Assembly (NCBI RefSeq): GCF_003334765.1
Contig: NZ_QOWT01000029.1
Strand: one strand, 5' to 3'
From: Escherichia coli
GTDB taxonomy: Bacteria > Pseudomonadota > Gammaproteobacteria > Enterobacterales > Enterobacteriaceae
Length of the DNA stretch: 51,807 nt
This document shows, in pieces, positions 21,172-44,023 of this stretch (position 1 is the stretch's first letter; each line of letters starts with the position of its first letter). The position numbers and the translations under genes are program-made. Below the pieces are notes generated by a model. It was not told the origin of the DNA. It saw nothing but the letters and a program-made list of their open reading frames with translations, and searched no databases.

Positions 21172-21248
21172 GGTAACCTCCCGTGGAAAAGAGACGAGGT
21201 AATCGGGGAACCGGATGAGCATCGCTGCATCATCCGGCAAATCAAGCC

Positions 21249-22028: not shown

Positions 22029-22071
22029 TTCATTCTCCTGGCTTGTCGCCAATAAAATTCACCTTGCGAGT

Positions 22072-22087
22072 TTGTTAGTATTCTAAC
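22072..22087. promoter_or_regulatory. DeoR operator O2 at deoP2
   Basis: 16-bp palindrome TGTTAGTATTCTAACA, 44 bp upstream of deoC start. Confidence 0.75.
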
Positions 22088-22285
22088 ATCTACTCCGCAA
22101 CACACTTCGATGTACATCACAATTAAGGAAATCTACTTACAAGTTTGCATCACTGTAATGCGATTTGGTTCAAATAATTCACTTTCAAATGAATGCGTCA
22201 GTGGTGGCAAACGCATCAGGATCAAAGTGAACATCACGAAACTTCTTACAATGGCGCATCACCTTCGGCATAAAAGGAAAAGAAG

Positions 22286-23836: not shown

Positions 23837-24671
23837 GATTATCCCCTTCTCCTGCGTTGACGGGCCAGGCAGTCGTCTGGCTCTGTTTTTGCAGGGCTGC
23901 AATCTGCGCTGCAAAAACTGTCACAATCCGTGGACGATGGGGCGCTGTAATGATTGCGGAGAGTGCGTGCCGCAGTGTCCGCATCAGGCGTTGCAGATTA
24001 TCGACGGCAAAGTGGCGTGGAGCGCGGCTGTTTGCGAGCAATGTGATACCTGCCTGAAGATGTGCCCGCAACATGCCACGCCAATGGCGCAATCCATGAG
24101 CGTGGACGAGGTGCTTAACCATGTCCGCAAAGCGGTGCTGTTTATTGAAGGGATAACGGTAAGCGGCGGCGAAGCCACGACCCAGTTGCCGTTTGTGGTG
24201 GCGCTGTTTACTGCCATCAAAAACGATCCGCAACTGTGCCATCTCACCTGCCTCGTGGACAGTAACGGCATGTTGAGCGAAACCGGCTGGGAAAAATTGC
24301 TCCCGGTGTGTGACGGCGCAATGCTCGATCTCAAAGCGTGGGGAAGCGAATGTCATCAGCAATTAACCGGACGCGATAATCAGCAGATCAAGCGCAGCAT
24401 CTGTTTGCTGGCAGAGCGCGGTAAGCTGGCGGAACTGCGTTTGCTGGTAATCCCTGGCCAGGTGGATTATTTGCAACACATCGAAGAACTGGCGGCGTTA
24501 ATCAAGGGACTTGGCGATGTTCCGGTACGCCTGAACGCGTTTCATGCCCACGGCGTGTATGGCGAGGCGCAAAGCTGGCCGAGCGCCACGCAGGAAGACA
24601 TTGAGCCGTTGGCTGATGCGTTAAAGGTGCGCGGGGTGAGCCGGTTGATATTTCCGGCGCTGTATTTGTGA
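23808..24671 (+). CDS. yjjW: YjjW, radical SAM glycyl-radical activating enzyme-like protein
   Basis: 287-aa ORF; radical SAM CxxxCxxC (CNLRCKNC) plus two ferredoxin-like CxxCxxCxxxC motifs ([22 protein letters not shown]). Confidence 0.9.
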
Positions 24672-24790
24672 CATGCCGGATGTGGCCTACAGTTCGGCAC
24701 AGACTTGTAGGCATGATAAGACGCGTCAAGCGTCGCATCAGGCATTGTGCGCCAACTGCCGGATGCGGCGTGAACGCCTTATCCGGCCTA
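24672..24790. repeat. BIME/REP cluster between yjjW and yjjV
   Basis: GCCGGATGTGGCCTACA, GATAAGACGCG...CGCATCAGGC, GCCGGATGCGGCGTGAACGCCTTATCCGGCCTACA; last unit overlaps the yjjV stop codon. Confidence 0.75.
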
Positions 24791-25567
24791 CAGCACGTTA
24801 AACAACGTATACGTGTTATTAAGCAACACTTCGGCAATTTCATCTGCGGGTTCCAAGCGTAACTCACAAAGCACAGCAAACACCCGCGCGGCCTGTTCCG
24901 GGCGGTTAGGCTGCCCCTGAAAACCGTTGAGCGGCATATCCGGCGCGTCGGTTTCCAGCAACAACGATGCCAGCGGTAATTTTGCGATGACATCGCGGGT
25001 TTTACTGGCGCGTGGATAGGTGATAGTGCCGCCTACGCCAATTTTGTAGCCCAGCTGTACAAACCGTTCAGCCTGTTGCAGGCTGCCGGAAAAACCGTGA
25101 ACCACGCCAGTACGCGGCAAATCGTGGCGTTTAAGATGCATCGCCAGTTTGTCGTGCGTGCGCCGTGAATGCAGGATCACCGGCAGATCGTAGCGTTTCG
25201 CCAGTTTCAGTTGTTCGTCGAGTAACCACTGCTGCCTCTCAAATTGCGGATCGTCGCCAAAGAGATCCAGGCCGATCTCCCCCACCGCCACCACCTTCGC
25301 CGGATGCCTTTCCAGCGCCTGCTGTAACTGCTCCAGCGATGCATCGCTATGTTTTTCTAACATCCCCGGATGCAACCCTAACGCGCCATACAGCGGTTGA
25401 TATTTTTCCGCTAACGCCTGCACGCGGGCAAAATTTTCCGCCTCTGTCGCCGGAACAATGATCTTGCCTACGCCCGCTTGTTCCGCGCGTTGCAGGCTGG
25501 CCTCTTCATCACCACTAAACGGCGGGAAATCAAAATGGCAGTGGGTGTCGATAAAACGGCAAATCAA
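24788..25567 (-). CDS. yjjV: TatD-family metal-dependent hydrolase YjjV
   Basis: 259-aa ORF with N-terminal HxH metal motif (DTHCHFD). Confidence 0.9.
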   Translation of the reverse strand: MICRFIDTHCHFDFPPFSGDEEASLQRAEQAGVGKIIVPATEAENFARVQALAEKYQPLYGALGLHPGMLEKHSDASLEQLQQALERHPAKVVAVGEIGLDLFGDDPQFERQQWLLDEQLKLAKRYDLPVILHSRRTHDKLAMHLKRHDLPRTGVVHGFSGSLQQAERFVQLGYKIGVGGTITYPRASKTRDVIAKLPLASLLLETDAPDMPLNGFQGQPNRPEQAARVFAVLCELRLEPADEIAEVLLNNTYTLFNVL

Positions 25568-26637
25568 GCCAGATCCTCATTGTTAAATGTCGGGTCGTTC
25601 GCCTGCGGAGCGTCGATCACTTCGGCAACCAGCGTATCGTTGGCGACTGACGCAGGCGGAATAACGATCGACTCCGGCGTCACCACCGGCACCAGATGGC
25701 GGGTAAGCGGCGCTTTTTCAGTCAATAACTTACCGACCGTTGCCAGAAAATAACGACCGCATAAACGCCCAAGTTTATAGTCTTCACGCAGCGCCGGAAT
25801 CCGACTGCCAAGCGCGATACTATGCAATGGCTTCGGCGGATAAATTTCGAATATCCGCAGTTTGCCCGGTGGTTTCTCAATAAATTGCTGAATGTCACGA
25901 TAGCTGGTTTCATGATGCTGCACCAGATTGACCAGCGGCTGCAGGCTACTGTCACCCAGCCAGCGTTCCATGCGTTTGAACCACTGCGGCGTGTAGTACA
26001 TTTGCGACGGCACGGTGCGGATGACGACCAACGTTTTAGCGCCCTGCCTTGCCGCCTCTTTAACCGGAATCGCATCACTGATCCCGCCATCCAGGTAGTT
26101 AATGCCTTCCAGCGACACTCCGCTACGATAAAAGCCAGGTATCGCACTGGAGGCGCGAATCACATCCAGCCAGTTTTGTTTGGTTGGTAAAAAGTAATTC
26201 GGCGCGTAGTCATCCTGACGACAGGCGCACATATAAAACGATTTGCCGCTGTCAAACAACCGCGCGGCGGTGTCCATTTGCAACGGCATCTGGCTTGCGG
26301 TGGCCTCCACCAGCCAGTCGAGATCGATAAGATTTCCTCCACGGACAAAGCGCAATGGATCGAAAAATTCGCGTTTTGTGGTATAGCGCATGATGACTTT
26401 ACGCGCGTAACCGGGCTGATTGCAGATATACGCCGAGAGGTTCTGCGCCCCGGCAGATGTGCCGAGATAAAGATCGAAAGGATTAAACTGCGCACGCATA
26501 AACTCATCCAGCACGCCAGCCGTGAAAATTCCACGCTGTCCGCCGCCTTCGCACACCAGAGCAATCCGTCCAGGCTGGAACGGCCTTAGCGACAACGGCG
26601 CAATATTACCAAGCGTTACAGGTATTCGCTGCCCCAC
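25564..26637 (-). CDS. yjjU: Patatin-like phospholipase YjjU
   Basis: ORF track 369 aa; start moved to GTG (VGQRIPV) to give 357 aa; patatin GGGxRG (CEGGGQRG) and GTSAG serine motif. Confidence 0.88.
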   Translation of the reverse strand: MGQRIPVTLGNIAPLSLRPFQPGRIALVCEGGGQRGIFTAGVLDEFMRAQFNPFDLYLGTSAGAQNLSAYICNQPGYARKVIMRYTTKREFFDPLRFVRGGNLIDLDWLVEATASQMPLQMDTAARLFDSGKSFYMCACRQDDYAPNYFLPTKQNWLDVIRASSAIPGFYRSGVSLEGINYLDGGISDAIPVKEAARQGAKTLVVIRTVPSQMYYTPQWFKRMERWLGDSSLQPLVNLVQHHETSYRDIQQFIEKPPGKLRIFEIYPPKPLHSIALGSRIPALREDYKLGRLCGRYFLATVGKLLTEKAPLTRHLVPVVTPESIVIPPASVANDTLVAEVIDAPQANDPTFNNEDLA

Positions 26638-26758
26638 CTCTGCCTTCCTGTTTTTGTTGTGAAAGAATGACAAAGTAACGCAATTTATTATTCGCTAAAA
26701 CCGCAAAAGCCAGTCCGCTGGACTGGCTTTGGATAAAATTTTCTTAATGGTCTGAAAT

Positions 26759-26920
26759 CTAGGGTCGTTTTCGGCCCATGAACAAACTCACCAGGAACAG
26801 AATAATCCCGACGACAAAGACAATTTTAGCTGCGCCTGCAGCGGTACCGGCCAGACCACCAAACCCAAGTGCGGCGGCGATTAACGCGATAACCAGAAAT
26901 ATGATGCCCCAACGAAACAT
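26759..26920 (-). CDS. ytjA: Small membrane protein YtjA (DUF1328)
   Basis: Start moved to [10 protein letters not shown] (53 aa), preceded by AAGGAGA; two hydrophobic helices. Confidence 0.8.
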
Positions 26921-27046
26921 AAGCGTCTCCTTTACCATAGTTAATGTCACCGCTTGATATGAGCGTGAAAATCACACAATGCGATATTTTTAGTGTGGTG
27001 CACATCGCGCCTCCCGACAAAGTTCGGGAGGACGAATTACGACGAA

Positions 27047-27652
27047 TTACTTAGTTTTCAGATCATTTTTAACGCTTTTCACACCATCTACCGCTTTGGC
27101 GATACTTTCAGCACGGTCGCTCTGTGCCTGGGAATCGACGGTACCGGAGAGCTGAACCACGCCGTCGGTGGTTTCAACTTTCACATGACGGGAAGGGACG
27201 ATATCGTCCGCCAGCAGTTTGGCTTTGATTTCACTGGTGGTGGCGGTGTCACCCGCGTAGCCCTTCACCGAGCCTTCTTTAGCGTCGCGAACGTGCAGTT
27301 TGTCGCTGACAGAGGTCACCCCTTCAACGCCTTTCGCCACTTTCACTGCCTCTTCGGCCTGAGCCTGGCTTTCAACGAAACCGCTCAGGGTCACGACTTT
27401 TTGATCGGTTTTGACAGAGATATCGGTGCTCTTAATGTTGTCATGATCCACCAGCGCCGCCTTCACTTTCGCGGTGATGGCGCTGTCATCCATGAAATTA
27501 CCGACTTTATTCATAGAGCTATCGACTTTTTGCCCTGCGCTTTCATTGGTAGTCTGCGCGTTGTTTTCCGCGTAGGCAGAGCCGGTCGCGACGGCAGAGG
27601 TCAACATTACAGCCAGCAGAGTTTTCGAAATCTTCAGTCTTGTCATAGTCAT
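27047..27652 (-). CDS. osmY: Osmotically inducible periplasmic protein OsmY
   Basis: ORF track 227 aa; start moved to [10 protein letters not shown] to give 201 aa; signal peptide and two BON domains. Confidence 0.93.
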
Positions 27653-28009
27653 CGATTTATTCCTGTATGTTTGCTCGTAATTTGAGCCTGGCAACACGAG
27701 GTTGCATTGCTGAATAGGGAGAGACTTCACCCTCTACAGAAGTCAATGGTCGCCATCACAAAAGCGATGGGTGATGAATAACGACCATTACAGCCTCTGA
27801 ATCAGTTATTAATATCGGTAGAATGACAATCGACGGCTTTAGATACTGATATCTACGCATTGAACGGTATTTAACGCCGTCAGAAATGTCATTACTTTGT
27901 TAAATATAGATCACAATTTTGAAACCGCTCGGGATATCAGCGAAAACATAAGCAAAAGTGAATGTTTTAAGAACATTCCGTAAGCGGCTAATAAGGAAGG
28001 GAAATTGAC

Positions 28010-28036
28010 AGGGCGCAGCGGCTACCGCGCCCTGGA
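28010..28036 (-). terminator. GC-rich hairpin just past prfC stop, possible terminator
   Basis: Stem GGGCGC/GCGCCC about 10 bp after prfC stop; no clear T-run. Confidence 0.4.
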
Positions 28037-28044
28037 GGCAAGAA

Positions 28045-29634
28045 TTAATGCTCGCGGGTCTGGTGGAACTGAACGTCCGGATAACGTTCCTGCGCCAGAC
28101 GCAGGTTGACCATGCTGGTAGCGATGTAAGCGAGGTTATCGCCGCCATCAAGCGCCAGTTGGCTTTCGTTCTTACGCTTGAACTCTTCGAATTTCTTCGC
28201 GTCCGCACATTCTACCCAGCGTGCAGTGGCAACGTTGACTGACTCATACACTGCTTCAACGTTGTATTCGCTCTTCAGGCGCGCTACCACCACATCAAAC
28301 TGCAGCACACCAACTGCACCAACGATCAGGTCGTTGTTGGAGATCGGACGGAACACCTGCACTGCGCCCTCTTCGGAAAGCTGTACCAGCCCTTTGAGCA
28401 GCTGTTTTTGCTTCAGTGGATCTTTCAGGCGGATACGACGGAACAGTTCTGGTGCGAAGTTCGGAATACCGGTGAACTTCATCATCTCACCCTGGGTAAA
28501 GGTGTCGCCGATCTGAATGGTGCCGTGGTTGTGCAGGCCGAGGATATCTCCCGGATACGCTTCTTCAACGTGCGAACGGTCGCCCGCCATAAAGGTCAGC
28601 GCGTCGGAGATCACCACATCTTTCGCGGTGCGCACCTGGCGCAGTTTCATGCCTTTTTCATATTTACCGGATACCACGCGCATAAACGCCACGCGGTCAC
28701 GGTGTTTCGGGTCCATGTTGGCCTGAATTTTAAATACGAAGCCGGTAAATTTGTCTTCGCTCGCTTCTACGGTACGGGTATCAGTCTGACGCGGCATCGG
28801 CGCAGGTGCCCACTCCACCAGACCATCCAGCATATGATCGACGCCGAAGTTACCCAGCGCAGTACCAAAGAATACCGGAGTGATTTCGCCCGCAAGGAAC
28901 AATTCTTTGTCGAACTCGTTAGACGCGCCTTTCACCAGCTCCAGTTCATCACGCAGCTGCTGCGCCAGATCTTCACCAACCGCAGCGTCGAGATCCGGGT
29001 TATTCAGCCCTTTAACAATACGGACTTCCTGAATGGTGTGGCCTTTACCGCTCTGATAAAGATAGGTTTCATCTTTATAAAGGTGGTAAACGCCTTTAAA
29101 CAGCTTGCCGCAGCCAATCGGCCAGGTGATCGGTGCGCAGCCGATTTTCAGCTCGTTCTCAACTTCATCGAGCAGTTCCATCGGGTCGCGGATATCACGG
29201 TCAAGTTTGTTCATAAAGGTGAGGATCGGCGTATCGCGCAGACGGGTAACTTCCATCAGCTTGCGGGTACGATCTTCAACACCTTTTGCGGCGTCGATAA
29301 CCATCAGGCAGCAGTCCACCGCCGTCAGGGTACGATAGGTATCTTCCGAGAAGTCTTCGTGCCCCGGGGTGTCGAGCAGGTTAACCAGGCAATCGTGATA
29401 CGGAAACTGCATCACAGACGTAGTAATGGAGATCCCACGCTGCTTTTCCATCTCCATCCAGTCCGACTTAGCGTGCTGGTTGGAACCACGGCCTTTTACT
29501 GTACCGGCGGTCTGAATGGCCTGTCCGAACAGCAGCACCTTCTCGGTGATGGTAGTCTTACCGGCGTCTGGGTGAGAAATAATGGCAAAAGTGCGGCGCT
29601 TCGCCACCTCTTGCAAATAAGGAGACAACGTCAT
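28045..29634 (-). CDS. prfC: Peptide chain release factor 3 (GTPase)
   Basis: ORF track 538 aa; start moved to [10 protein letters not shown] to give 529 aa; GTPase motifs [12 protein letters not shown] and DTPGH. Confidence 0.95.
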
Positions 29635-29724
29635 AATTCTTTCTTCTTGAGTAAGCGGCATCGCGCCGCGCTTGTTGAAAACGAAAAATTGCGGCTATTT
29701 TACCCATCAACGGGGGGGAGGCAA

Positions 29725-30402
29725 TCAGTGTTTACACAGGAGCTGCTCCAGTTCGTGCAACGAAGAAACGGTCCAGGTAGGCGCGATGCCTTCTGGTTGC
29801 TCGCGATTGTGCGCATTCAGCCAGCAGGTCGCAAGCCCGGCGTTGATGCCACCGAGAATATCGGACTCGGCAGTGTCGCCAACCATCAGCACGCGTGAAC
29901 GGTCAGGATTGCCCGCCTGTTCCAGCGCATAATCGAAAATTTTCTTATTCGGTTTGGCAACGCCAACTTCTTCGGAAATCACCAGCAAATCGAAATAATC
30001 ACGCAGGCCCGTGCGTTCCAGACGCACTTGCTGCAAGGCGCTAAAGCCGTTGGTGATGATGCCAATTTTAGCGTTGCCACGAATGGCGTTAAGCAGAGAA
30101 ACCGCGCCCGGCAGCGGCGTACAGATTTCCGCCATCGCATTAATAAAGGCTTCGTTGAGTTTACCCGGCTCGACGTTCAGCCGTTCGGCCCAGCTCTCAA
30201 ACCGCCCGTGCTGAAGCTGTAATGAAGTGATCGCGCCGTTTTGATAATCCACCCACAGTGGCTTGTTAACGGCCTGATAGTCCTGAAAATCTTCAGCGGT
30301 AAAGGTGACGCTGTAATCAAGAAACATCCGCTGCAGGCCGGTGAATGAGTCAAAGGTAAACAGCGTTTCATCGGCATCAAAGAAAATCCAGTCCCACTTC
30401 AT
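29725..30402 (-). CDS. yjjG: HAD-family pyrimidine 5'-nucleotidase YjjG
   Basis: 225-aa ORF with HAD motif I FFDADETL. Confidence 0.9.
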
Positions 30403-30416
30403 TATTCCACCTTGTC

Positions 30417-30863
30417 TTACATACTGATTGGCAACGCCATGATGATGGCGTCTTCGCGACCGTCCGTGGTGGGGTAGTAATTGCGGCGAATCGTCGCCTC
30501 GTTAAAGCCTAAACTTTCGTACAGTGCAATGGCGGCAGCGTTTGAGGCACGGACTTCCAGCCATAGCGTCGCCACGCCGCGTTTTTCCAGTTCGTCGATC
30601 AGATGTTCCAGCAGCGCCCTTCCCAATCCCTGACGCTGATAGTCAGGATCGACCGCAATATTGAACAATGTAGCTTCATCCAGCACCACTTGCGTAATCG
30701 CAAACGCCGCCATTTTGCCGTTTTGCGTTAACTGAAAGTTGAGATAACGCTCGCCCTGGTTGCTGGCAAAGGTTTTCTCACTCCACGGAAAGGCGTGGGC
30801 GCGTTGTTCAATGTGGTAAGCCGCTGGTAAATCAGTCGTTTCGAGGGAAGAAATCGTGTTCAT
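30417..30863 (-). CDS. rimI: Ribosomal protein S18 alanine N-acetyltransferase RimI
   Basis: 148-aa ORF with GNAT acetyl-CoA motif ([13 protein letters not shown]). Confidence 0.92.
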
Positions 30864-31245
30864 ATGTGCAAATTTGTTGCCATAACGCGGCGCGTGCCGT
30901 TGGGTTTGCCCGTAATTCGGTGAGCGCCGGTGATGCCACCTGAGCGCCTTCCAGTGATAGCGGTTCGTCAGTACCCAACCGCCAGCTGTTGCAGCGACTG
31001 CCTTGTGGCAGCATCGAGATTTTTTCTGGCGTCAGTTGCAGCACTTGATCGGGGCTGACGGTTAATGCGCGCAGAACATCGCTCACCAGAGGATCAGTCA
31101 GGGCGGGAAGATCGTTTGCCACCATCACCAGACGGACGTGTGCCGGGATCGCAATGGCAATCTCCCCCTGCAACGCGCCAGGGCGACGCAGCGACCACTG
31201 GGTAATGCCCAGTTGCTGTAACTGCCAGTCTCGTCGGGATGTCAT
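30832..31245 (-). CDS. holD: DNA polymerase III psi subunit HolD
   Basis: 137-aa ORF whose 3' end overlaps the rimI start. Confidence 0.9.
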   Translation of the reverse strand: MTSRRDWQLQQLGITQWSLRRPGALQGEIAIAIPAHVRLVMVANDLPALTDPLVSDVLRALTVSPDQVLQLTPEKISMLPQGSRCNSWRLGTDEPLSLEGAQVASPALTELRANPTARAALWQQICTYEHDFFPRND

Positions 31246-31347
31246 AGCGAATCGCTCCTGTTGTCAGGGGCGCAAATATAGCAAATTCGTCGATACCGCG
31301 CCAACATATGGCTATAATCGCCGCCAGTATCAATTGAGGAGCATTCC

Positions 31348-32379
31348 ATGTCTGCATTTACCCCGGCAAGTGAAGTCTTGCTGCGTCACAGTGATGATTT
31401 CGAACAAAGCCGTATTCTGTTTGCCGGAGACTTACAGGATGACCTGCCCGCGCGTTTAGATACCGCGGCCAGCCGTGCTCATACCCAGCAATTCCACCAT
31501 TGGCAGGTGTTAAGCCGCCAGATGGGGGATAACGCCCGTTTTAGTCTGGTCGCAACGGCAGATGACGTCGCAGATTGCGATACGCTGATCTACTACTGGC
31601 CGAAGAATAAACCGGAAGCCCAGTTCCAGTTGATGAATTTACTTTCTCTGCTGCCGGTGGGCACGGATATTTTTGTCGTTGGCGAGAACCGCAGCGGCGT
31701 GCGCAGCGCCGAACAGATGCTGGCAGATTATGCGCCGTTGAATAAAGTCGACAGCGCCCGTCGCTGCGGCCTCTATTTTGGTCGTCTGGAAAAACAGCCG
31801 GAATTTGATGCGGATAAATTCTGGGGCGAATATAACGTGGATGGCCTGACGGTCAAAACGCTGCCGGGCGTGTTTAGCCGCGACGGTCTGGATGTCGGTA
31901 GCCAGTTACTGCTCTCGACGTTAACTCCGCACACGAAAGGTAAAGTGCTGGATGTCGGCTGTGGCGCGGGCGTGCTTTCTGTTGCCTTTGCGCGCCATTC
32001 GCCGAAAATTCGTCTCACTCTGTGCGATGTCTCTGCGCCAGCGGTAGAAGCCAGCCGCGCAACACTTGCGGCCAACGGTGTTGAAGGTGAAGTCTTTGCC
32101 AGTAACGTCTTTTCCGAGGTGAAAGGTCGTTTTGATATGATCATCTCCAACCCGCCGTTCCACGATGGGATGCAAACCAGCCTCGATGCGGCGCAAACGC
32201 TGATTCGCGGCGCGGTGCGTCATCTTAATAGCGGCGGCGAGCTGCGAATTGTAGCGAACGCCTTCCTGCCTTATCCGGACGTGCTGGATGAGACATTTGG
32301 CTTCCACGAAGTGATCGCGCAAACCGGGCGCTTCAAGGTGTATCGCGCCATTATGACCCGCCAGGCGAAGAAAGGTTAA
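31348..32379 (+). CDS. rsmC: 16S rRNA (guanine1207-N2)-methyltransferase RsmC
   Basis: 343-aa ORF with SAM-binding motif [12 protein letters not shown] and NPPFH catalytic motif. Confidence 0.93.
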
Positions 32380-32509
32380 GTATCTGATATCTGTCGCCGC
32401 ATACCGTGTCGGATGCGGCGTACACGCCTTCTCTGACCGACAAACGAATTATCCACAATCCGCTGATGGACATTTTTCCAGCAATTACACCTCCGGCGAT
32501 AATTAACTA

Positions 32510-32537
32510 TTGACGAAAAGCTGAAAACCACTAGAAT
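32510..32537 (+). promoter_or_regulatory. Sigma-70 promoter of the tRNA-Leu gene
   Basis: -35 TTGACG, 16-bp spacer, -10 TAGAAT, about 40 bp upstream of the mature tRNA 5' end. Confidence 0.7.
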
Positions 32538-32578
32538 GCGCCTCCGTGGTAGCAATTCTTTTTAAGAATTGATGGTAT

Positions 32579-32665
32579 GCGAAGGTGGCGGAATTGGTAG
32601 ACGCGCTAGCTTCAGGTGTTAGTGTCCTTACGGACGTGGGGGTTCAAGTCCCCCCCCTCGCACCA
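32579..32665 (+). tRNA. leuV: tRNA-Leu (anticodon CAG)
   Basis: 87-nt sequence GCGAAGGTGGCGGAATTGGTAGACGCG...GGTTCAAGTCCCCCCCCTCGCACCA with anticodon loop CTTCAGGTG and encoded CCA; only one copy present. Confidence 0.95.
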
Positions 32666-32703
32666 ATTATCTTTACTTCCTTTCTTGTTTCTTCCCTGAT
32701 TTT

Positions 32704-32940
32704 TCATCCCTGATTCAAATTCATTATCATCAGCATGATGCCAGCAATAAGCGCCAGGCACGATGGCAGCAAAACGTAATGCCGCAACTGTTTGTGATAC
32801 AGCATCACCGGCGTCAATATTAATCCCATCAGAATGACAATCCGCCACTGATCCGGCGATAAATCCGCATACATCAGCCCTGCAATCAGCAATCCCGGCA
32901 GCAACACTCCCCAGCCACTGCCCAGCGTACGTTGCAACAT
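32704..32940 (-). CDS. yjjZ: Small membrane protein YjjZ (DUF1435)
   Basis: ORF track 115 aa; start moved to MLQRTLGSGW to give 78 aa; Fur box immediately upstream. Confidence 0.75.
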   Translation of the reverse strand: MLQRTLGSGWGVLLPGLLIAGLMYADLSPDQWRIVILMGLILTPVMLYHKQLRHYVLLPSCLALIAGIMLMIMNLNQG

Positions 32941-32958
32941 GGTTTCATCTCTTTCATT

Positions 32959-32995
32959 GATAATGATAACTAATATCATATGATAATTTTTATCA
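32959..32995. promoter_or_regulatory. Fur boxes in the yjjZ/fhuF divergent control region
   Basis: GATAATGATAACTAATATC closely matches the Fur consensus GATAATGATAATCATTATC; adjacent TGATAATTTTTATCA palindrome. Confidence 0.7.
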
Positions 32996-33047
32996 TTTGC
33001 AAGCCAGAGAAATCCCTTGCTATCGGGTAAACCTATCGCTAGGATTA

Positions 33048-33068
33048 GCAATCATTATCATTTAGATT
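33048..33068. promoter_or_regulatory. Fur-box-like site next to the fhuF start
   Basis: GCAATCATTATCATTTAGATT (AATCATTATC core) 13 bp upstream of the fhuF ATG. Confidence 0.55.
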
Positions 33069-33080
33069 ACTATCCCGATT

Positions 33081-33869
33081 ATGGCCTATCGTTCCGCACC
33101 GCTCTATGAAGATGTTATCTGGCGAACGCATCTCCAGCCGCAGGATGCTGGGCTTGCACAAGCCATACGGGCGACGATCGCCGAACATCGTGAACATTTG
33201 CTCGAGTTTATCCGCCTGGATGAACCCGCTCCGCTTAACGCCATGACGCTGGCGCAATGGTCATCAACGAATGCGCTAAGTTCTCTACTGGCGGTCTATT
33301 CCGATCATATCTATCGCAACCAACCAACGATGATCCGCGAGAACAAACCGCTGATCTCACTATGGGCGCAATGGTATATCGGCCTGATGGTGCCACCATT
33401 AATGTTGGCGCTGCTGACGCAGGAAAAAGCATTAGATGTGTCGCCGGAACATTTCCACGTTGAGTTTCACGAAACCGGACGCGCCGCCTGTTTCTGGGTC
33501 GATGTGTGTGAAGATAAAAACGCAACACTACATTCGCCGCAGCAGCGAATGGAAACGTTAATCAGTCAGGCGCTGGTTCCGGTAGTGCAGGCATTAGAAG
33601 CAACGGGAGAGATCAACGGCAAACTTATCTGGAGCAATACCGGTTATTTGATCAACTGGTATCTGACTGAGATGAAACAGCTGCTTGGCGAGGCGACGGT
33701 TGAATCGCTGCGCCATGCCCTCTTTTTTGAGAAAATGCTCACGAACGGTGAAGATAATCCACTCTGGCGTACCGTGGTACTGCGCGACGGCCTGCTGGTG
33801 CGCCGCACTTGCTGCCAGCGTTATCGCTTACCGGATGTGCAGCAATGTGGCGATTGTACGCTGAAATGA
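33081..33869 (+). CDS. fhuF: Ferric-siderophore reductase FhuF (2Fe-2S)
   Basis: 262-aa ORF with C-terminal C-C-x10-C-x2-C cluster motif (RRTCCQRYRLPDVQQCGDC). Confidence 0.93.
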   Translation: MAYRSAPLYEDVIWRTHLQPQDAGLAQAIRATIAEHREHLLEFIRLDEPAPLNAMTLAQWSSTNALSSLLAVYSDHIYRNQPTMIRENKPLISLWAQWYIGLMVPPLMLALLTQEKALDVSPEHFHVEFHETGRAACFWVDVCEDKNATLHSPQQRMETLISQALVPVVQALEATGEINGKLIWSNTGYLINWYLTEMKQLLGEATVESLRHALFFEKMLTNGEDNPLWRTVVLRDGLLVRRTCCQRYRLPDVQQCGDCTLK

Positions 33870-33906
33870 AAGCACTGCCGGGGAAGTAAACCCGGCATCA
33901 TGCGGA

Positions 33907-34584
33907 TTAATAGGGATGCAACACATTACTTGCTTCGCAATGCCGCATACATAACAGAATATCTGCGGCCTCCAACAACCCTGCATCAGAACTGACGCCC
34001 AGTTTCGACATCACATTAAATTTATGTGCACGGATCGTTTTGATATTGCGTTTAAGCTGCTCGGCAATTTGTGTCATTGAGTAGCCACGCGACATAAAGC
34101 GCAATATTTCTCTCTCCGTCGGGCTTAGCGTTCGGCTTTGATTAATGTACCACTGATTGTTCAGTCGGTCGGTCGCCTGACGTACACCATTTAATGACAA
34201 AAAGAGTTCCTGATGAAAAATCTCCAGCGTTGACGCTTTACTTAATACACCGTCCAACGGTGATGGCGACAATGAACCAATCAGCCGAGCTTCAATATCA
34301 TCATCCGCAATAACTAAACGCCGGGTACGCGGAAACTTAATCGCCAGTTCAGTCAGGCAAGATAATCCCTCTCTGCGCTCACTTCTCATGGCAGAAAAAG
34401 AAAAAATGACCGCCGCAAACGAGATCCGCGACATGGCATCCTGAAATGACTCCTGACTGGTATAGGTATGGAGCTTATAAGGGTTACCCGCAAACTTTCT
34501 GAATAAACTCTCAATACCGATACTACTCATGACGCATTTTTCTATGAGTGCGACATTTCTCTTCTTAATTCGGCTGTGTTCCAT
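33907..34584 (-). CDS. bglJ: LuxR-family transcriptional activator BglJ
   Basis: 225-aa ORF with C-terminal LuxR HTH; 5' end overlaps yjjQ. Confidence 0.9.
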
Positions 34585-35267
34585 TCTGCGGCATCTCCAT
34601 AAACAGAAGGCAAGTTAAGTTCTCTTGCACCCTGCGCGCTATTTATCCATGCATACATTTCAGCGTTGCTGTGAATTGCCAGTCGACGCATCGCACTGTT
34701 TTTTTGGGCGCTGATAGTTTTATTACTTTTCTTAAGCAATGAAGCTATCTGGTTGATGCCCCATCCTTTACCTAATAGCCGCAGTACCTTGCGCTCTGAA
34801 AGAGTGAGAATGACGGAGCGATAGCTAAAATCATGAGTTTCAGTCATTGCCGGAGAGGTCAGCATGGCGCTGATACGCTCTGCGTGCGTATTACCGGAAC
34901 GTACGGTCTTGACCAGATTCTCAATGGGTTCAACATCAGACAATAACGTCGCCGTAGGGCACATGAGCAATTCTACTGCCTGGGAATACCAGGATCGTGA
35001 CACCATGAAAACCCAGTGAATTTCCCGATATTGTGAGATTAAAGAATAATAATGTTCACAAACAGAACGTGGATCTTCACTTTCACCGGCTAAATCAGCA
35101 ATGACTAATCCGGAACGACGTAATTGTAATAAGGTAAGGTCCTCCGCAGAGGCGCTGGATATTATTTCATATTCAGGGAAGTGAGTCCTCATGACCTCTT
35201 TTAACCCTGCTTGCATAACAGGTATTTTACTGATAACAATTCCATTTTTGCAGCATCCTGGCAACAT
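34542..35267 (-). CDS. yjjQ: LuxR-family transcriptional regulator YjjQ
   Basis: 241-aa ORF with C-terminal LuxR HTH; AT-rich upstream region. Confidence 0.9.
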
Positions 35268-35885
35268 ATTTCCTCCACATCCACTGTCTAAAAATTATGA
35301 TGGTTTATTCAGGATATTCATTCCTTAAATGTTTCCAGCAAATTAATAGATTAAGCGAATAAATTATCCTTAGCATTCACTTTCATATCAGCATACTCCT
35401 GCTGCACAACAACTCCACTGCATGTGTCAGAAGGTTAGCATCAAATGATAACCTAGTGAAATAGCCTGGAGACATTTAAAATATCTACATTAAGTTGTTA
35501 GAAATACTTAATGAAAAACAGAATTCTCATTCATTTAATTTATAATTAACTGATATCCCTTCCAGTAGAATGCAAAATCACACAATCAATATTTATTCAA
35601 TAAAATCTGATAGTTTTAACTTGTAAAAATTAAAAAACGCGCCCAGTTATCTTTTATCCTGATTCGTAAAGGCTAAACAATAAATTCATTATAGTGATAA
35701 TATTCATGTGATAATTTATTTGCGACGAGAGATAATTCGCTTTTTATCACCGAGCTTCTCCCGATAACCAGGATTAATCAGCGCAATTTTGATCTTAACC
35801 TACCGCAAAACAACCGTGCTTCATGATACAAATGGATTCTCATTATCTGAACAATACGCAGCACGTCTATGACAAAGGGCGAGTT

Positions 35886-36656
35886 ATGCAAACTGAGCAA
35901 CAGCGAGCCGTAACACGGCTTTGTATCCAGTGTGGATTATTTCTTTTGCAACATGGTGCGGAAAGCGCGTTGGTTGATGAGCTTTCCTCACGACTGGGTC
36001 GGGCGCTGGGAATGGACAGCGTCGAAAGTTCTATCTCTTCGAACGCCATAGTGCTGACAACTATTAAAGATGGGCAATGCCTGACATCGACACGAAAAAA
36101 TCAAGATCGCGGCATTAATATGCATGTGGTGACTGAAGTCCAGCACATTGTGATTCTGGCGGAGCATCATCTGCTGGATTACAAAGGTGTAGAGAAACGA
36201 TTTAGCCAAATTCAGCCATTACGTTACCCGAGATGGCTGGTAGCCTTAATGGTCGGCCTTTCTTGCGCCTGTTTCTGTAAACTCAATAAAGGTGGCTGGG
36301 ATGGTGCCGTCATCACCTTCTTTGCCAGTACGGTCGCGATGTATATCCGCCAGCTGCTGGCACAACGTCATCTTCATCCACAGATCAACTTTTGCCTCAC
36401 CGCTTTCGCCGCCACCACCATTTCCGGTTTGCTTTTGCAACTTCCCACTTTCAGCAATACACCCACCATCGCGATGGCCGCCAGCGTTCTGCTGCTGGTG
36501 CCGGGTTTTCCGTTGATTAATGCCGTCGCCGATATGTTTAAAGGCCACATCAATACCGGACTGGCACGCTGGGCGATCGCCAGTCTGCTGACACTGGCTA
36601 CCTGCGTCGGCGTGGTGATGGCACTGACGATTTGGGGGCTACGCGGATGGGTGTGA
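35886..36656 (+). CDS. yjjP: Inner-membrane protein YjjP (succinate exporter subunit)
   Basis: ORF track 277 aa from 35823; start moved to [12 protein letters not shown] to give 256 aa. Confidence 0.85.
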
Positions 36657-37120
36657 TCGAATTTCTGTTAGCGTTGGCGCAGGATATGATCCTCGCCGCC
36701 ATTCCTGCGGTCGGCTTTGCGATGGTGTTCAACGTTCCCGTGCGGGCGTTACGCTGGTGTGCGCTGCTTGGCTCGATAGGTCATGGTTCCCGAATGATCT
36801 TAATGACCAGCGGGCTGAATATTGAGTGGTCAACTTTTATGGCTTCTATGCTGGTCGGCACCATTGGTATTCAATGGTCGCGCTGGTATCTGGCGCATCC
36901 GAAAGTGTTTACCGTGGCGGCTGTTATTCCTATGTTCCCTGGCATATCGGCTTATACCGCAATGATTTCGGCGGTAAAAATCAGCCAGCTAGGTTACAGC
37001 GAACCGTTGATGATTACCCTGTTAACCAACTTTCTTACAGCTTCATCAATTGTTGGTGCGTTATCCATCGGTCTTTCCATTCCTGGATTATGGTTGTACC
37101 GCAAGCGCCCTCGCGTATAA
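36647..37120 (+). CDS. yjjB: Inner-membrane protein YjjB (succinate exporter subunit)
   Basis: ORF track 162 aa; start moved to [10 protein letters not shown] to give 157 aa; hydrophobic; overlaps yjjP stop. Confidence 0.85.
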
Positions 37121-37226
37121 AATTGCCTCGCTTAAGCACACGGATGAGAGACAGCCTCCTCTCCTCCGTGTGTTACTATAAAAGTTATCTCCCTTCTCGT
37201 TCATCGTTCCATATTTGAGAAACAGT

Positions 37227-37766
37227 ATGTCTTCCAGAGTTTTGACCCCGGACGTCGTTGGTATTGACGCCCTGGTACACGATCACCAAACCGTTCTGGC
37301 AAAAGCTGAAGGCGGTGTGGTTGCCGTATTTGCTAACAATGCCCCGGCGTTTTATGCCGTCACGCCTGCACGCCTGGCTGAACTGCTGGCGCTGGAAGAA
37401 AAGCTGGCGCGTCCGGGAAGCGATGTCGCTCTGGACGATCAACTCTATCAGGAACCGCAAGCTGCTCCCGTAGCTGTACCCATGGGGAAATTCGCCATGT
37501 ATCCGGACTGGCAACCCGATGCCGACTTTATCCGCCTGGCGGCGCTATGGGGCGTGGCGCTAAGAGAGCCGGTGACCACCGAAGAACTGGCCTCATTCAT
37601 TGCCTACTGGCAGGCGGAAGGTAAAGTCTTTCACCATGTGCAGTGGCAACAAAAACTGGCGCGCAGCCTGCAAATCGGTCGTGCCAGCAACGGCGGACTG
37701 CCGAAACGAGATGTGAATACGGTCAGTGAACCTGACAGCCAAATTCCACCAGGATTCAGAGGGTAA
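37227..37766 (+). CDS. dnaT: Primosomal protein DnaT
   Basis: ORF track 183 aa; start moved to [12 protein letters not shown] to give 179 aa. Confidence 0.92.
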
Positions 37767-37768
37767 CG

Positions 37769-38506
37769 ATGAAAAACGTTGGCGACCTGATGCAACGCCT
37801 GCAAAAAATGATGCCTGCCCATATCAAACCTGCTTTCAAAACGGGTGAAGAACTACTGGCCTGGCAGAAAGAACAAGGGGCGATCCGCTCCGCCGCTCTC
37901 GAACGTGAAAATCGGGCGATGAAAATGCAGCGCACCTTTAACCGCTCCGGTATTCGTCCACTGCATCAGAACTGCTCCTTTGAGAACTATCGCGTTGAGT
38001 GTGAAGGGCAGATGAATGCGTTAAGCAAAGCGCGCCAGTATGTCGAAGAGTTTGACGGCAACATCGCCAGCTTCATCTTTTCTGGTAAGCCAGGAACCGG
38101 CAAAAACCATCTGGCGGCGGCAATCTGCAACGAGCTGCTGCTACGCGGTAAATCCGTATTGATCATCACCGTGGCCGATATTATGTCGGCGATGAAAGAT
38201 ACCTTCAGGAATAGCGGTACCAGCGAAGAACAACTGCTTAACGATCTGAGCAACGTTGATCTGCTGGTGATCGATGAGATCGGCGTGCAGACCGAATCGA
38301 AATACGAAAAAGTGATCATCAACCAGATCGTCGATCGCCGCTCTTCTTCCAAACGCCCAACCGGGATGCTGACCAACAGTAATATGGAAGAGATGACCAA
38401 GTTGCTGGGCGAACGCGTGATGGACCGTATGCGCCTGGGTAACAGTTTATGGGTGATCTTCAACTGGGATAGCTACCGTAGCCGGGTAACAGGTAAAGAG
38501 TATTAA
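37769..38506 (+). CDS. dnaC: Helicase loader DnaC (AAA+)
   Basis: 245-aa ORF with Walker A GKPGTGKNHLA and Walker B LLVIDEIG; starts 3 bp after dnaT. Confidence 0.95.
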   Translation: MKNVGDLMQRLQKMMPAHIKPAFKTGEELLAWQKEQGAIRSAALERENRAMKMQRTFNRSGIRPLHQNCSFENYRVECEGQMNALSKARQYVEEFDGNIASFIFSGKPGTGKNHLAAAICNELLLRGKSVLIITVADIMSAMKDTFRNSGTSEEQLLNDLSNVDLLVIDEIGVQTESKYEKVIINQIVDRRSSSKRPTGMLTNSNMEEMTKLLGERVMDRMRLGNSLWVIFNWDSYRSRVTGKEY

Positions 38507-38554
38507 TCCCCGTTTCTGGCGGTATACTGCGACACAATTCCACCTTGAGTAATG

Positions 38555-39049
38555 ATGATGAAAACTGTTAAACACCTTCTGTGCTGTGCCATTGCCGCCA
38601 GCGCATTAATTTCCACCGGGGTGCATGCTGCGTCCTGGAAAGATGCGCTCTCCAGCGCCGCCAGCGAACTTGGCAACCAAAACAGCACGACACAGGAAGG
38701 CGGTTGGTCGCTCGCGTCATTAACTAACTTGCTTAGCAGCGGGAACCAGGCCTTAAGCGCAGATAACATGAACAACGCCGCAGGCATTCTGCAATACTGC
38801 GCGAAGCAAAAGCTGGCTTCGGTAACCGATGCCGAAAACATCAAGAACCAGGTGCTGGAAAAGCTGGGCCTGAACAGTGAAGAACAAAAAGAAGACACCA
38901 ACTATCTGGATGGCATTCAGGGTTTGCTGAAAACCAAAGATGGTCAGCAACTCAATCTGGATAACATCGGAACGACTCCGCTGGCAGAAAAGGTGAAAAC
39001 CAAAGCCTGCGATCTGGTGTTAAAGCAGGGGCTGAACTTCATTTCCTGA
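38555..39049 (+). CDS. yjjA: Periplasmic protein YjjA (DUF2501)
   Basis: ORF track 165 aa; start moved to MMKTVKHLLCCAIAASALI (164 aa, signal peptide). Confidence 0.8.
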   Translation: MMKTVKHLLCCAIAASALISTGVHAASWKDALSSAASELGNQNSTTQEGGWSLASLTNLLSSGNQALSADNMNNAAGILQYCAKQKLASVTDAENIKNQVLEKLGLNSEEQKEDTNYLDGIQGLLKTKDGQQLNLDNIGTTPLAEKVKTKACDLVLKQGLNFIS

Positions 39050-39302
39050 ACCGCGAAACGCCGCGTTTTAGCTGTTACCCGGCTGACGCGGCTCTCTCCT
39101 GCCCTTTTCCCTGCTCCTGGACGGTTTTCCCCCTGTTACACGGGAAGCGACCGCGATCAAAAAAGTCTGTTTATAAACTAATTCCTAACAACATCGCATT
39201 TTTTTGACACTAGAATTGCAGCAATATGGCGACGCCATTACATTGTGCTTCTCAAAAAGCTTAAACGTTGGCTAAACAGCCCGGTTTAGTGAGGATCGCC
39301 CG

Positions 39303-41594
39303 TTGTCAGAACTACTCTCTTTCGCCCTTTTTCTCGCCTCTGTGCTGATTTACGCATGGAAAGCGGGACGTAACACCTGGTGGTTTGCAGCCACATTAAC
39401 AGTGCTGGGGCTATTTGTCGTTTTAAATATCACCCTGTTTGCCAGCGACTATTTTACTGGCGATGGTATTAACGACGCGGTTCTCTATACCTTAACCAAC
39501 AGCCTGACCGGTGCTGGCGTCAGCAAATACATCCTGCCGGGTATCGGCATTGTGCTGGGGCTGACAGCGGTGTTCGGTGCGCTGGGCTGGATCCTGCGCC
39601 GTCGTCGCCATCATCCGCACCATTTTGGTTACAGCCTGCTGGCGCTCTTACTGGCGCTGGGTTCGGTGGACGCCAGCCCGGCATTTCGTCAGATAACGGA
39701 ACTGGTGAAATCCCAGTCACGCGATGGCGACCCGGACTTTGCGGCTTATTATAAAGAGCCGTCGAAAACTATCCCTGACCCGAAACTCAACCTGGTTTAT
39801 ATCTACGGCGAAAGTCTCGAGCGGACCTATTTTGATAACGAGGCTTTCCCGGATCTCACGCCTGAACTGGGCGCGTTGAAAAATGAAGGCCTGGATTTCA
39901 GCCACACGCAGCAGCTGCCAGGAACGGATTACACGATTGCGGGCATGGTGGCTTCTCAGTGCGGCATACCGCTGTTTGCCCCCTTTGAAGGCAACGCCTC
40001 CGCCTCTGTCTCCAGCTTCTTCCCGCAGAACATCTGTCTGGGCGATATCCTGAAAAACTCGGGTTATCAGAACTATTTCGTGCAGGGCGCAAATCTGCGT
40101 TTTGCCGGTAAAGATGTGTTCCTGAAATCGCACGGCTTCGACCACTTATACGGCTCAGAAGAGCTGAAAAGCGTGGTAGCCGACCCGCACTATCGCAACG
40201 ACTGGGGATTCTACGACGATACCGTTCTCGATGAAGCGTGGAAAAAGTTTGAAGAGCTTTCCCGCTCAGGTCAGCGATTCTCACTGTTTACCCTGACAGT
40301 CGATACCCATCACCCGGATGGTTTTATTTCTCGTACCTGTAACCGCAAAAAATATGATTTTGACGGTAAACCGAATCAGTCATTCAGCGCGGTAAGTTGC
40401 AGCCAGGAGAATATCGCGACGTTTATCAACAAAATCAAAGCGTCACCGTGGTTTAAAGATACTGTCATCGTCGTCTCTTCTGACCATTTAGCGATGAACA
40501 ACACGGCGTGGAAATACCTCAATAAGCAGGATCGCAATAACCTGTTTTTTGTCATTCGTGGCGACAAGCCGCAGCAAGAGACGCTGGCAGTGAAGCGTAA
40601 CACGATGGATAACGGCGCGACGGTGCTGGACATTCTCGGTGGCGATAACTATCTCGGACTTGGTCGTAGCAGTTTATCCGGGCAGTCGATGTCGGAAATC
40701 TTCCTCAATATCAAAGAGAAAACATTGGCGTGGAAGCCAGATATCATCCGCCTGTGGAAATTCCCTAAAGAGATGAAAGAGTTCACCATCGACCAGCAGA
40801 AAAACATGATTGCCTTCTCGGGTAGCCATTTCCGTTTGCCGCTGCTGTTGCGGGTTTCAGACAAACGCGTGGAACCGCTGCCGGAAAGCGAATACTCAGC
40901 ACCGCTGCGTTTCCAGCTGGCCGATTTCGCTCCACGCGACAATTTCGTCTGGGTTGACCGTTGCTATAAGATGGCACAACTCTGGGCTCCGGAACTGGCA
41001 CTCTCCACCGACTGGTGTGTCTCGCAAGGGCAGCTTGGCGGTCAGCAAATTGTTCAGCATGTTGACAAAACAACATGGCAGGGCAAAACGGCATTTAAAG
41101 ATACGGTCATCGACATGGCGCGTTATAAAGGCAATGTCGATACGCTGAAAATTGTTGATAACGATATTCGCTACAAAGCCGACAGTTTCATCTTCAACGT
41201 CGCCGGTGCGCCAGAAGAGGTGAAACAGTTTAGTGGGATTTCCCGTCCAGAGTCGTGGGGCCGCTGGTCCAACGCGCAGCTGGGCGATGAAGTAAAAATC
41301 GAGTACAAGCATCCGCTGCCGAAGAAATTTGACCTGGTGATTACCGCCAAAGCATACGGCAATAACGCCAGCCGTCCTATTCCGGTACGCGTAGGCAATG
41401 AAGAAAAAACTCTTGTGCTGGGCAATGAAGTGACCACCACCACACTGCATTTCGATAACCCAACCGATGCCGACACACTGGTAATTGTGCCGCCGGAACC
41501 TGTCTCAACCAACGAAGGGAATATCCTCGGACACTCGCCGCGTAAGCTCGGGATCGGCATGGTGGAAATTAAAGTTGTGGAACGTGAAGGGTAA
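39303..41594 (+). CDS. opgB: Phosphoglycerol transferase I OpgB (MdoB)
   Basis: 763-aa ORF starting at TTG (…[14 protein letters not shown]); N-terminal TM helices and sulfatase-like periplasmic domain. Confidence 0.93.
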
Positions 41595-41603
41595 TTTCTG
41601 ACT

Positions 41604-41655
41604 GATGTGTAGGTCGCATAAGGTGCGACCTACACATCTTCTCCGGCCTACAAAA
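41604..41655. repeat. REP-like palindromic element after opgB
   Basis: Palindrome TGTGTAGGTCGCA...TGCGACCTACACA followed by CTCCGGCCTACAAAA. Confidence 0.6.
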
Positions 41656-41733
41656 CATCATTGAGAAACAGAAAAAAAACAGCGCCCAACACTTCCCCGG
41701 ACGCTGCATGGCAACTTTAATAATCTCGCCTTA

Positions 41734-42756: not shown

Positions 42757-42894
42757 GATTCGGCTCTCCATTTTTTGTTGCCTTAGATATCAATGAAAAT
42801 GAAAAATGGCAGCGGAACGGAAAATCTGTTTTGTGAAAACACACGCATAAAAATGTTTTAAATCGGGTTTTAATGGACTCACAAGGAGGAAAAT

Positions 42895-43809: not shown

Positions 43810-44023
43810 GTACGGATTAAAAACAGCAAACTATTAGCGGGTGCACGGTTTTATCAAAAGATAAATACCGGGAAATTCCCGCTTACCTATGCTCACAATC
43901 AGTCGACTAAAAATGTTTTTGTGAGCGGTAGTAAAGTCCTAAAACTTTAACCTGCCGTTAATGTCAACCTTGCGTAATGCACAATTACGTAAACAATTAA
44001 AATTATAAATACAGGAGTCCGGC

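What the first reader, a model, noticed from the sequence alone, without database searches (positions are those of the whole stretch)
32500..32700. Single tRNA-Leu(CAG) gene where K-12 has the leuQ-leuP-leuV tandem triplet
One promoter (TTGACG, 16 bp, TAGAAT) is followed by exactly one 87-nt tRNA-Leu(CAG), with no second or third copy before yjjZ. From memory, K-12 has three identical tandem copies here. Loss by recombination between repeats would cut the dosage of the major leucine tRNA, unless this is an assembly collapse of identical repeats.
Basis: partly seen in the sequence, partly recalled or inferred. Interest (0 to 1): 0.35.

Follow-up and report, generated by a model that had tools for sequence, protein, structure and literature searches.

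The report
One-copy version of leuQPV tRNA array
This E. coli sequence has one leucine-tRNA gene where most strains have three in a row; this copy-number variant is already visible in public genomes such as O157:H7 Sakai, and here it is either a very recent small deletion or an assembly error.

Summary
The window holds exactly one tRNA-Leu(CAG) gene (32579-32665, +). It sits behind an intact TTGACG-16-TAGAAT promoter, between rsmC and yjjZ. K-12 has leuQ-leuP-leuV at this site.

The single copy is a derived state:
- 92 of 99 readable species representatives across Enterobacterales have three copies behind this promoter.
- All 12 complete E. coli genomes that are 100.0% identical to the window over 35 kb of flanks carry about 236 more bases here, which equals two tRNAs plus the 28-nt and 34-nt spacers.
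- The window keeps the leuQ leader and the leuV trailer and shows no scar.

The variant is not new. About 427 of 5,426 complete E. coli genomes (7.9%) have no tandem junction, about 82 have two copies, and about 4,917 have three or more. O157:H7 Sakai has one copy, annotated leuQ. One-copy alleles occur on at least seven flank haplotypes.

The window cannot show whether this instance is a real, strain-private deletion between perfect 87-bp repeats or an assembly collapse. In the nearest relative examined, all three copies are identical, and two public draft contigs break inside the array. I put a real deletion at about 0.5 and collapse at about 0.42. It is ordinary and of low interest.

The parts
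31348..32379 (+). rsmC (16S rRNA m2G1207 methyltransferase), the upstream neighbour
   Evidence: A 343-aa ORF. Syntenic genomes annotate it as rsmC.
32395..32445 (.). REP-like palindromic element between rsmC and the tRNA promoter. K-12 carries an extra insert of about 77 nt here.
   Evidence: Sequence and alignment A1. The boundaries are approximate.
32463..32509 (+). Region upstream of the promoter, conserved among E. coli strains. I infer that it holds the UP-element/Fis region of the leuQPV (leuV) promoter.
   Evidence: Identical in three strains and two substitutions away from K-12. The function rests on my recollection of the literature and was not tested.
32510..32537 (+). Sigma-70 promoter: -35 TTGACG, 16-nt spacer, -10 TAGAAT
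   Evidence: 10 of 12 consensus positions. Base-for-base identical to the K-12 leuQPV promoter. The -10 plus GCGCCTCC plus the tRNA start is conserved in at least 120 Enterobacterales species representatives.
32538..32578 (+). GC-rich discriminator (GCGCCTCC) and 5' leader, removed by RNase P
   Evidence: Identical to the K-12 leuQ leader. RNase P processing of leuQPV was shown in K-12 (PMC2190699). The transcription start is inferred.
32579..32665 (+). The single tRNA-Leu(CAG) gene: 87 nt, long variable arm, encoded CCA
   Evidence: ARAGORN and Rfam RF00005. Identical to K-12 leuQ and leuV and to all three copies of clone relative 14EC017.
32666..32703 (+). 3' trailer, identical to the trailer after K-12 leuV. 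Pyrimidine-rich with no hairpin, so termination is presumed to be Rho-dependent.
   Evidence: Alignment A1. No terminator-like site on the + strand. Rho-dependent termination and trimming by PNPase and RNase II are reported for K-12 (PMC2190699).
32704..32940 (-). yjjZ (DUF1435), the convergent downstream neighbour
   Evidence: Coordinates transferred from GF131 and LH85-a, which are collinear with the window. It lies within the ORF 32704..33051 listed.
33081..33869 (+). fhuF (siderophore-iron reductase)
   Evidence: A 262-aa ORF with matching annotation in syntenic genomes.

Best explanation
This is the leuQPV tRNA operon reduced to a single gene. The promoter, discriminator and leuQ leader are intact. 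They are followed by one 87-nt tRNA-Leu(CAG) gene and then directly by the trailer that normally follows leuV. The 236 bp that hold two tRNA copies and the 28-nt and 34-nt spacers are absent.

The most likely origin is a recent deletion private to this strain. It would arise by misalignment of the perfect 87-bp direct repeats, either as replication slippage or sister-strand exchange, or as RecA-dependent unequal crossing-over. It could happen in one step (leuQ with leuV) or through a two-copy intermediate.

The remaining unit should work as a monocistronic operon. It would be transcribed from a stringently controlled sigma-70 promoter, have its 5' end cut by RNase P, terminate by Rho, and have its 3' end trimmed by exonucleases. 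If the strain has the usual leuT, genome-wide tRNA-Leu(CAG) genes fall from four to two. The expected effect is a modest growth cost in rich medium and little or none in poor medium.

Shown here: the anatomy, the direction of change (loss), and that the state is private to this genome within its clone. Inferred: the deletion mechanism, expression, and fitness effect.
For: - Anatomy.
- The triplet is ancestral: 92 of 99 readable species representatives across Enterobacterales have three copies behind the same promoter, 5 have two and 2 have one. E. albertii has three, with the same spacers.
- The state is private: 12 complete genomes are 100.0% identical to window 12500-32500 and 32700-47700. 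In all 12 the stretch between the two matches is 434-435 nt, against 199 nt in the window. Strain 300709 has 0 differences over 2 x 1100 nt of flank and three copies. 14EC017 has three copies.
- Real one-copy alleles exist and persist. About 427 of 5,426 complete genomes have no tandem junction. Finished O157:H7 Sakai has one copy. One-copy alleles occur on at least 7 flank haplotypes in the top 30 hits.
- Genomes with the same flanking proteins differ in copy number: LH85-a has 1, WP4-S17 has 2 and 300709 has 3; AVS0543 has 1 and 1324KP has 2.
- Both kinds of two-copy intermediate exist, one keeping the 28-nt spacer and one the 34-nt spacer.
- Viability: a K-12 strain lacking leuVPQ altogether was built and its tRNA pool measured. 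In that study tRNA gene loss was costly in rich media and often beneficial in poor media (PMC9981150).
Against: - Nothing in the sequence separates a real deletion from an assembly collapse. Both give exactly leader, one tRNA, trailer.
- None of the 12 clone-mates shares the state, so if it is real it is very young. That is also what an artefact would look like.
- In the nearest relative examined the three repeats are identical to one another, which is the easiest case for a collapse.
- Two public draft contigs with the same RsmC allele end inside the array, so short-read assemblers have trouble here.
- The sequencing technology of the window is unknown.
Confidence: 0.5

Rival explanations
1. 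Assembly collapse. The isolate really has three tandem copies, like all of its clone-mates. The assembler passed through the shared 87-nt repeat once and dropped the two short spacer loops.
For: - All 12 complete genomes with 100.0% identical flanks have three copies.
- In the nearest relative examined the three copies are identical to one another.
- Two draft contigs, L141 and L142, end inside the array.
- The state is seen in this one sequence only within its clone.
Against: - A collapsed path of leader, tRNA, trailer is supported by no read longer than about 90-100 nt from a three-copy genome. From general knowledge of assemblers, modern ones tend to resolve or break such arrays. Among the 9 places retrieved with the same RsmC allele, 7 were resolved to three copies, 2 were broken and none was collapsed.
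- The rest of the 27-kb tract shared with 14EC017 has no indels at all, so the sequence is otherwise clean.
- Genuine one-copy alleles are common in finished genomes.
Confidence: 0.42
2. The one-copy allele was imported by homologous recombination from another E. coli lineage that already had it, such as an O157:H7-like, AVS-type or LH85-a-type strain.
For: - The window is a recombination mosaic relative to 14EC017, with a switch point near 24.8 kb.
- One-copy alleles circulate in several lineages.
Against: - The flanks are identical to three-copy clone-mates for 20 kb upstream and 15 kb downstream.
- Every sampled one-copy donor haplotype differs from the window at 21-94 sites in the 2.2-kb flanks.
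- An import would have to begin and end inside the array itself, which makes it the same event as an unequal exchange.
Confidence: 0.03
3. One copy is the ancestral state, and K-12 and most strains gained two copies by duplication.
For: None, beyond the existence of one-copy genomes.
Against: - Three copies with homologous spacers occur in E. albertii and other Escherichia species, and 92 of 99 readable species representatives across Enterobacterales have three copies behind the same promoter, in genera such as Citrobacter, Enterobacter, Klebsiella, Pantoea, Erwinia and Dickeya.
- Clone-mates have three copies.
Confidence: 0.01

Closest known systems
E. coli K-12 leuQ-leuP-leuV operon (b4370, b4369, b4368), also called the leuV operon
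   Same: Same chromosomal site between rsmC and yjjZ. The -35, spacer, -10, discriminator and 41-nt leader are identical, the tRNA is identical to leuQ and leuV, and the 3' trailer is identical apart from one base.
   Different: One gene instead of three, and both intergenic spacers (28 and 34 nt) are missing. K-12 also has a C48T variant in leuP and an extra REP-containing insert of about 77 nt upstream of the promoter.
The single 'leuQ' locus of E. coli O157:H7 Sakai (ECs_R0127) and other one-copy E. coli genomes (GF131, LH85-a, the AVS strains, TUM1226, GF43)
   Same: Same architecture: rsmC, promoter, one tRNA-Leu(CAG), yjjZ.
   Different: Different flank haplotypes, 21-94 differences in 2.2 kb, so these are independent events. 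In O157:H7 the state is shared by every O157:H7-type genome seen here (Sakai, RIMD 0509939, 493/89). In the window it is private within the clone.
Two-copy alleles of the same array (WP4-S17-ESBL-08 keeps the 28-nt spacer; 1324KP and LR-33 keep the 34-nt spacer)
   Same: The same kind of contraction between 87-bp repeats at the same locus.
   Different: They lost one repeat unit (115 or 121 bp). The window lost two (236 bp).

Membership tests
tRNA-Leu(CAG), a class II tRNA with a long variable arm | Cloverleaf with anticodon CAG and a long variable arm | tested here: met
   ARAGORN: tRNA-Leu, anticodon cag at position 35, 87 nt. Rfam RF00005: 48.5 bits against a gathering score of 29.
tRNA-Leu(CAG), a class II tRNA with a long variable arm | Sequence identity to the characterised E. 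coli tRNA-Leu1 genes, with the 3' CCA encoded | tested here: met
   87 of 87 identical to K-12 leuQ and leuV and to all three copies in 14EC017. The gene ends in ...CACCA.
leuQPV operon orthologue | Position between rsmC and yjjZ/fhuF | tested here: met
leuQPV operon orthologue | The leuQPV promoter and leader upstream, and the leuV trailer downstream | tested here: met
   Alignment A1: identical from the -35 to the tRNA, and identical trailer apart from one base.
leuQPV operon orthologue | Three tandem tRNA-Leu(CAG) genes | tested here: not met
   One gene only. It is a contracted allele of the operon, not the canonical triplet.
Stringently controlled sigma-70 stable-RNA promoter | Near-consensus -35 and -10 hexamers with a 16-nt spacer and a GC-rich discriminator | tested here: met
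   TTGACG-16-TAGAAT followed by GCGCCTCC.
Stringently controlled sigma-70 stable-RNA promoter | Growth-rate and ppGpp control, and Fis/UP-element activation | not testable with these tools
   This needs expression experiments. I recall it being reported for the K-12 leuV promoter, but no paper held in the library could be cited for it.
Rho-dependent tRNA operon end | No intrinsic terminator after the last tRNA | tested here: met
   No terminator-like site on the + strand in 32300-33100. Agrees with PMC2190699.

The most novel reading that the evidence does not exclude
The deletion is real and very recent. One member of a globally spread E. coli clone, whose 12 finished relatives all keep the triplet, has halved its gene dosage for the tRNA that reads CUG, the most used codon. 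That would be one more independent contraction of an array conserved across Enterobacterales. With matched three-copy clone-mates it would be a natural isogenic pair for measuring the fitness cost or benefit of tRNA gene dosage.
Probability: 0.5. Interest if true: 0.2.

Novelty: already known. Interest (0 to 1): 0.1.

Why it matters
It matters little on its own. Copy-number variation of the leuQPV array (one, two or three copies) is already visible in the annotation of public genomes, and the fitness effects of losing tRNA genes have been measured experimentally. If the deletion is real, this strain and its three-copy clone-mates form a natural pair for testing dosage effects of the major leucine tRNA. 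If it is an artefact, it is a reminder that tRNA gene counts from assemblies with short tandem repeats need read-level confirmation.

Tried and rejected
- **False lead on the nearest relatives.** (22 kb spanning the array) suggested the nearest genomes were only 98.8% identical. The search tool splits three-copy genomes at the array, so one- and two-copy genomes rank first. Queries that avoid the array showed 12 complete genomes at 100.0%.
- **Junction queries with 40-nt tRNA flanks.** both gave 4,999. I take this to be the number of genomes with any tandem pair, because collinear flank pieces are joined. Spacer-only queries gave 4,739 for the 28-nt spacer and 4,944 for the 34-nt spacer. These fit 55 plus 27 two-copy genomes and about 233 three-copy genomes whose 28-nt spacer is too divergent for a 28-mer seed. 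I did not check that last group directly.
- **Window ends as a clue to a draft contig.** The right end lies 168 nt inside an IS1. The left end lies in unique yjjY sequence, with no repeat there in clone-mate HSP425. No conclusion is possible.
- **Finding the source record.** I searched by the exact RsmC protein. The allele is too common (13,907 blocks) and the source was not identified.
- **Prior literature.** Withers et al. 2006 (RNA 12:933), probably the first description of tRNA gene differences among E. coli genomes, is not held. McDonald et al. 2015 does not mention this locus.
- **Recombination breakpoint at the array.** Rejected. The nearest difference from 14EC017 is 2.2 kb upstream, at position 30393.

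Full report
**1. The observation**

ARAGORN finds exactly one tRNA gene in the 51,807-base window: tRNA-Leu(CAG) at 32579-32665 on the + strand. Rfam's tRNA model hits the same place. It is followed by the GC-rich GCGCCTCC. The neighbours are rsmC (31348-32379, +), yjjZ (32704-32940, -) and fhuF (33081-33869, +). K-12 MG1655 has three 87-nt tRNA-Leu(CAG) genes at this site, separated by 28 and 34 nt. The observation and the recalled K-12 state are both correct.

**2. Anatomy**

I aligned the window with K-12 (three copies), WP4-S17-ESBL-08 (two) and GF131 (one).
- The window is identical to K-12 from the -35 hexamer through the 41-nt leader.
- The tRNA is identical to leuQ and leuV. K-12 leuP differs by C48T.
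- The trailer matches the one after leuV apart from one base.
- What is missing is exactly 236 bp: two tRNA copies plus both spacers. There is no scar.
- No intrinsic terminator follows the gene. That fits published work showing that leuQPV ends at an unstructured, presumably Rho-dependent terminator, is separated and 5'-matured by RNase P, and is trimmed at the 3' end by PNPase and RNase II (PMC2190699).
- As written, the locus is an intact monocistronic version of the leuQPV operon.

**3. Direction of change**

I scanned species-representative genomes for the -10 hexamer plus discriminator, followed by the start of the tRNA. Of the 99 loci long enough to read the whole array, 92 have three tandem copies, 5 have two and 2 have one. 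E. albertii and two other Escherichia species have three copies, with spacers homologous to those of K-12. The triplet is therefore ancestral and the single copy is a loss.

**4. How common it is in E. coli**

The collection holds 5,426 complete E. coli genomes.
- 4,999 contain a tRNA-spacer-tRNA junction. About 427 (7.9%) therefore have none. Up to 14 of these may instead have a disrupted locus.
- 509 match the window's 1-kb locus over at least 80% of its length. These are the one-copy and two-copy genomes, which gives about 82 with two copies and about 4,917 with three or more.
- Spacer-only searches found the 28-nt spacer in 4,739 genomes and the 34-nt spacer in 4,944. These numbers are consistent with that split.
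- An even-step sample of 60 genomes, searched with the flanks only, gave 55 with three copies, 3 with one, 1 with two and 1 disrupted.
- The finished O157:H7 Sakai reference has one copy, annotated leuQ.
- In the top 30 hits, one-copy alleles sit on at least seven flank haplotypes.
- Genomes with identical flanking proteins can differ in copy number. LH85-a has 1, WP4-S17 has 2 and 300709 has 3. AVS0543 has 1 and 1324KP has 2.

Contraction of this array is recurrent, and it is already visible in public annotation.

**5. The window's own lineage**

My first search across the array was misleading, because three-copy genomes are split at the array and rank low. Searches that avoid the array gave a different picture.
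- Twelve complete genomes are 100.0% identical to window 12500-32500 and also to 32700-47700: HSP425, OZ547038, H3, EH09-18-41, CPF6, IAL7250, IAL7252, IAL7254, IAL7255, WS4437A-1, BS74R-D and 300709.
- In every one of them the two matches lie 434-435 nt apart, against 199 nt in the window. That is 235-236 nt more, or two further repeat units.
- Strain 300709 has 0 differences from the window in 2 x 1100 nt of flank and carries three copies.
- 14EC017 differs from the window by 9 substitutions and no other indel from about 24.9 kb to the end of the window. It also has three copies, all identical to one another and to the window's copy.

The one-copy state is therefore private to this sequence within its clone.

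**6. Real deletion or artefact**

Both routes give exactly the observed sequence, so the window cannot decide.

*For a real deletion:*
- One-copy alleles are heritable and common in finished genomes, including the finished O157:H7 Sakai reference.
- Both kinds of two-copy intermediate exist.
- Of 9 public places with the same RsmC allele, 7 were resolved to three copies, 2 were broken inside the array and none was collapsed.
- The rest of the shared 27-kb tract has no indels.

*For a collapse:*
- None of the 12 clone-mates shares the state.
- The repeats in the nearest relative examined are perfect copies.
- Draft contigs do break inside the array.

The window's ends give no clue to the assembly type. 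The right end is 168 nt inside an IS1, but the left end is in unique sequence. I put a real, strain-private deletion at about 0.5, a collapse at about 0.42, import of a foreign one-copy allele at about 0.03 (the flanks exclude every sampled donor), and an ancestral single copy at about 0.01.

**7. Mechanism and consequence if real**

This section is inference. Perfect 87-bp direct repeats with a period of 115-121 bp are well-known substrates for two processes: RecA-independent slipped misalignment or sister-strand exchange, and RecA-dependent unequal crossing-over. That is established knowledge about how tandem repeats are deleted in E. coli; I did not test it here.

One-copy relatives show two matching places for this tRNA in their genomes. 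That fits leuT plus this one gene and no compensating extra copy. If the window's genome is the same, dosage falls from four genes to two.

Experimental work in K-12 built a strain lacking leuVPQ altogether and measured its tRNA pool. In that study tRNA gene loss slowed growth and translation elongation in rich media and was often beneficial in poor media (PMC9981150). A mutation-accumulation preprint also reported indels in leuP, leuQ, leuV and leuT associated with larger colonies (bioRxiv 10.1101/355404).

**8. Verdict**

The finding is accurate but ordinary. It is a known copy-number polymorphism of a well-studied tRNA operon. Its only open point is whether this instance is biological, and that needs the reads.

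Noticed in passing
window 2500-24900 versus 24900-51807: Compared with strain 14EC017 the window is 2-3% divergent up to about 24.8 kb. From there to the end it is nearly identical (9 substitutions, no indels apart from the tRNA array). The switch coincides with a naRNA4/REP325-type repeat at 24710-24788 in the yjjW-yjjV spacer. This looks like a recombination mosaic whose boundary lies at a repeat element.
   Followed up: partly
window 7272-7349 (+), 11667-11745 (-), 24710-24788 (-): Three matches to Rfam naRNA4 (RF02564, a nucleoid-associated RNA of the REP325/BIME type), each above the gathering score.
   Followed up: no
window 51640-51807: The end of an IS1 element (inverted repeat GGTAATGACTCCAACTTACTGATAGTG...), cut off by the end of the window. 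It lies next to a brnT/brnA toxin-antitoxin pair. The same insertion is present in 14EC017 and HSP425, where a dienelactone hydrolase gene fragment lies on the far side.
   Followed up: partly
window 32380-32460; L001 (K-12) 1903-2170: K-12 carries an extra REP-containing insert of about 77 nt between rsmC and the leu promoter, which the window and most sampled strains lack. In two other genomes (L135, L138) the stretch between rsmC and the first tRNA is 101 nt longer (300 against 199 nt).
   Followed up: partly
L126 (strain 300709) 1617-1702; the IAL7250/52/54/55 genomes: In strain 300709 the first tRNA-Leu copy is 86 nt, with a run of 7 C instead of 8. In 300709 and the four IAL genomes the stretch across the array is 434 nt rather than 435. 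This is probably a homopolymer error in long-read assemblies rather than a real variant.
   Followed up: no
L141 (DAGHWO010000037.1) and L142 (PNVH01000038.1): Two public draft contigs that carry the same RsmC allele end inside the tRNA array. One ends 17 nt into the second spacer and the other 54 nt into the first tRNA. Short-read assemblies often fail at this locus.
   Followed up: partly
L053 (Enterobacter sichuanensis), L060 (Winslowiella iniecta), L021, L046, L055, L088, L116: Species representatives outside Escherichia with only one or two copies behind the conserved promoter. These are either parallel contractions in other Enterobacterales or collapses in draft assemblies.
   Followed up: no
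H149, NZ_AP045770.1 (strain 23CRST011), around 4344015-4344130: In this complete genome only the promoter-leader half of the flank query matches, and no feature is annotated under the match. The array or its downstream side may be disrupted or replaced.
   Followed up: no
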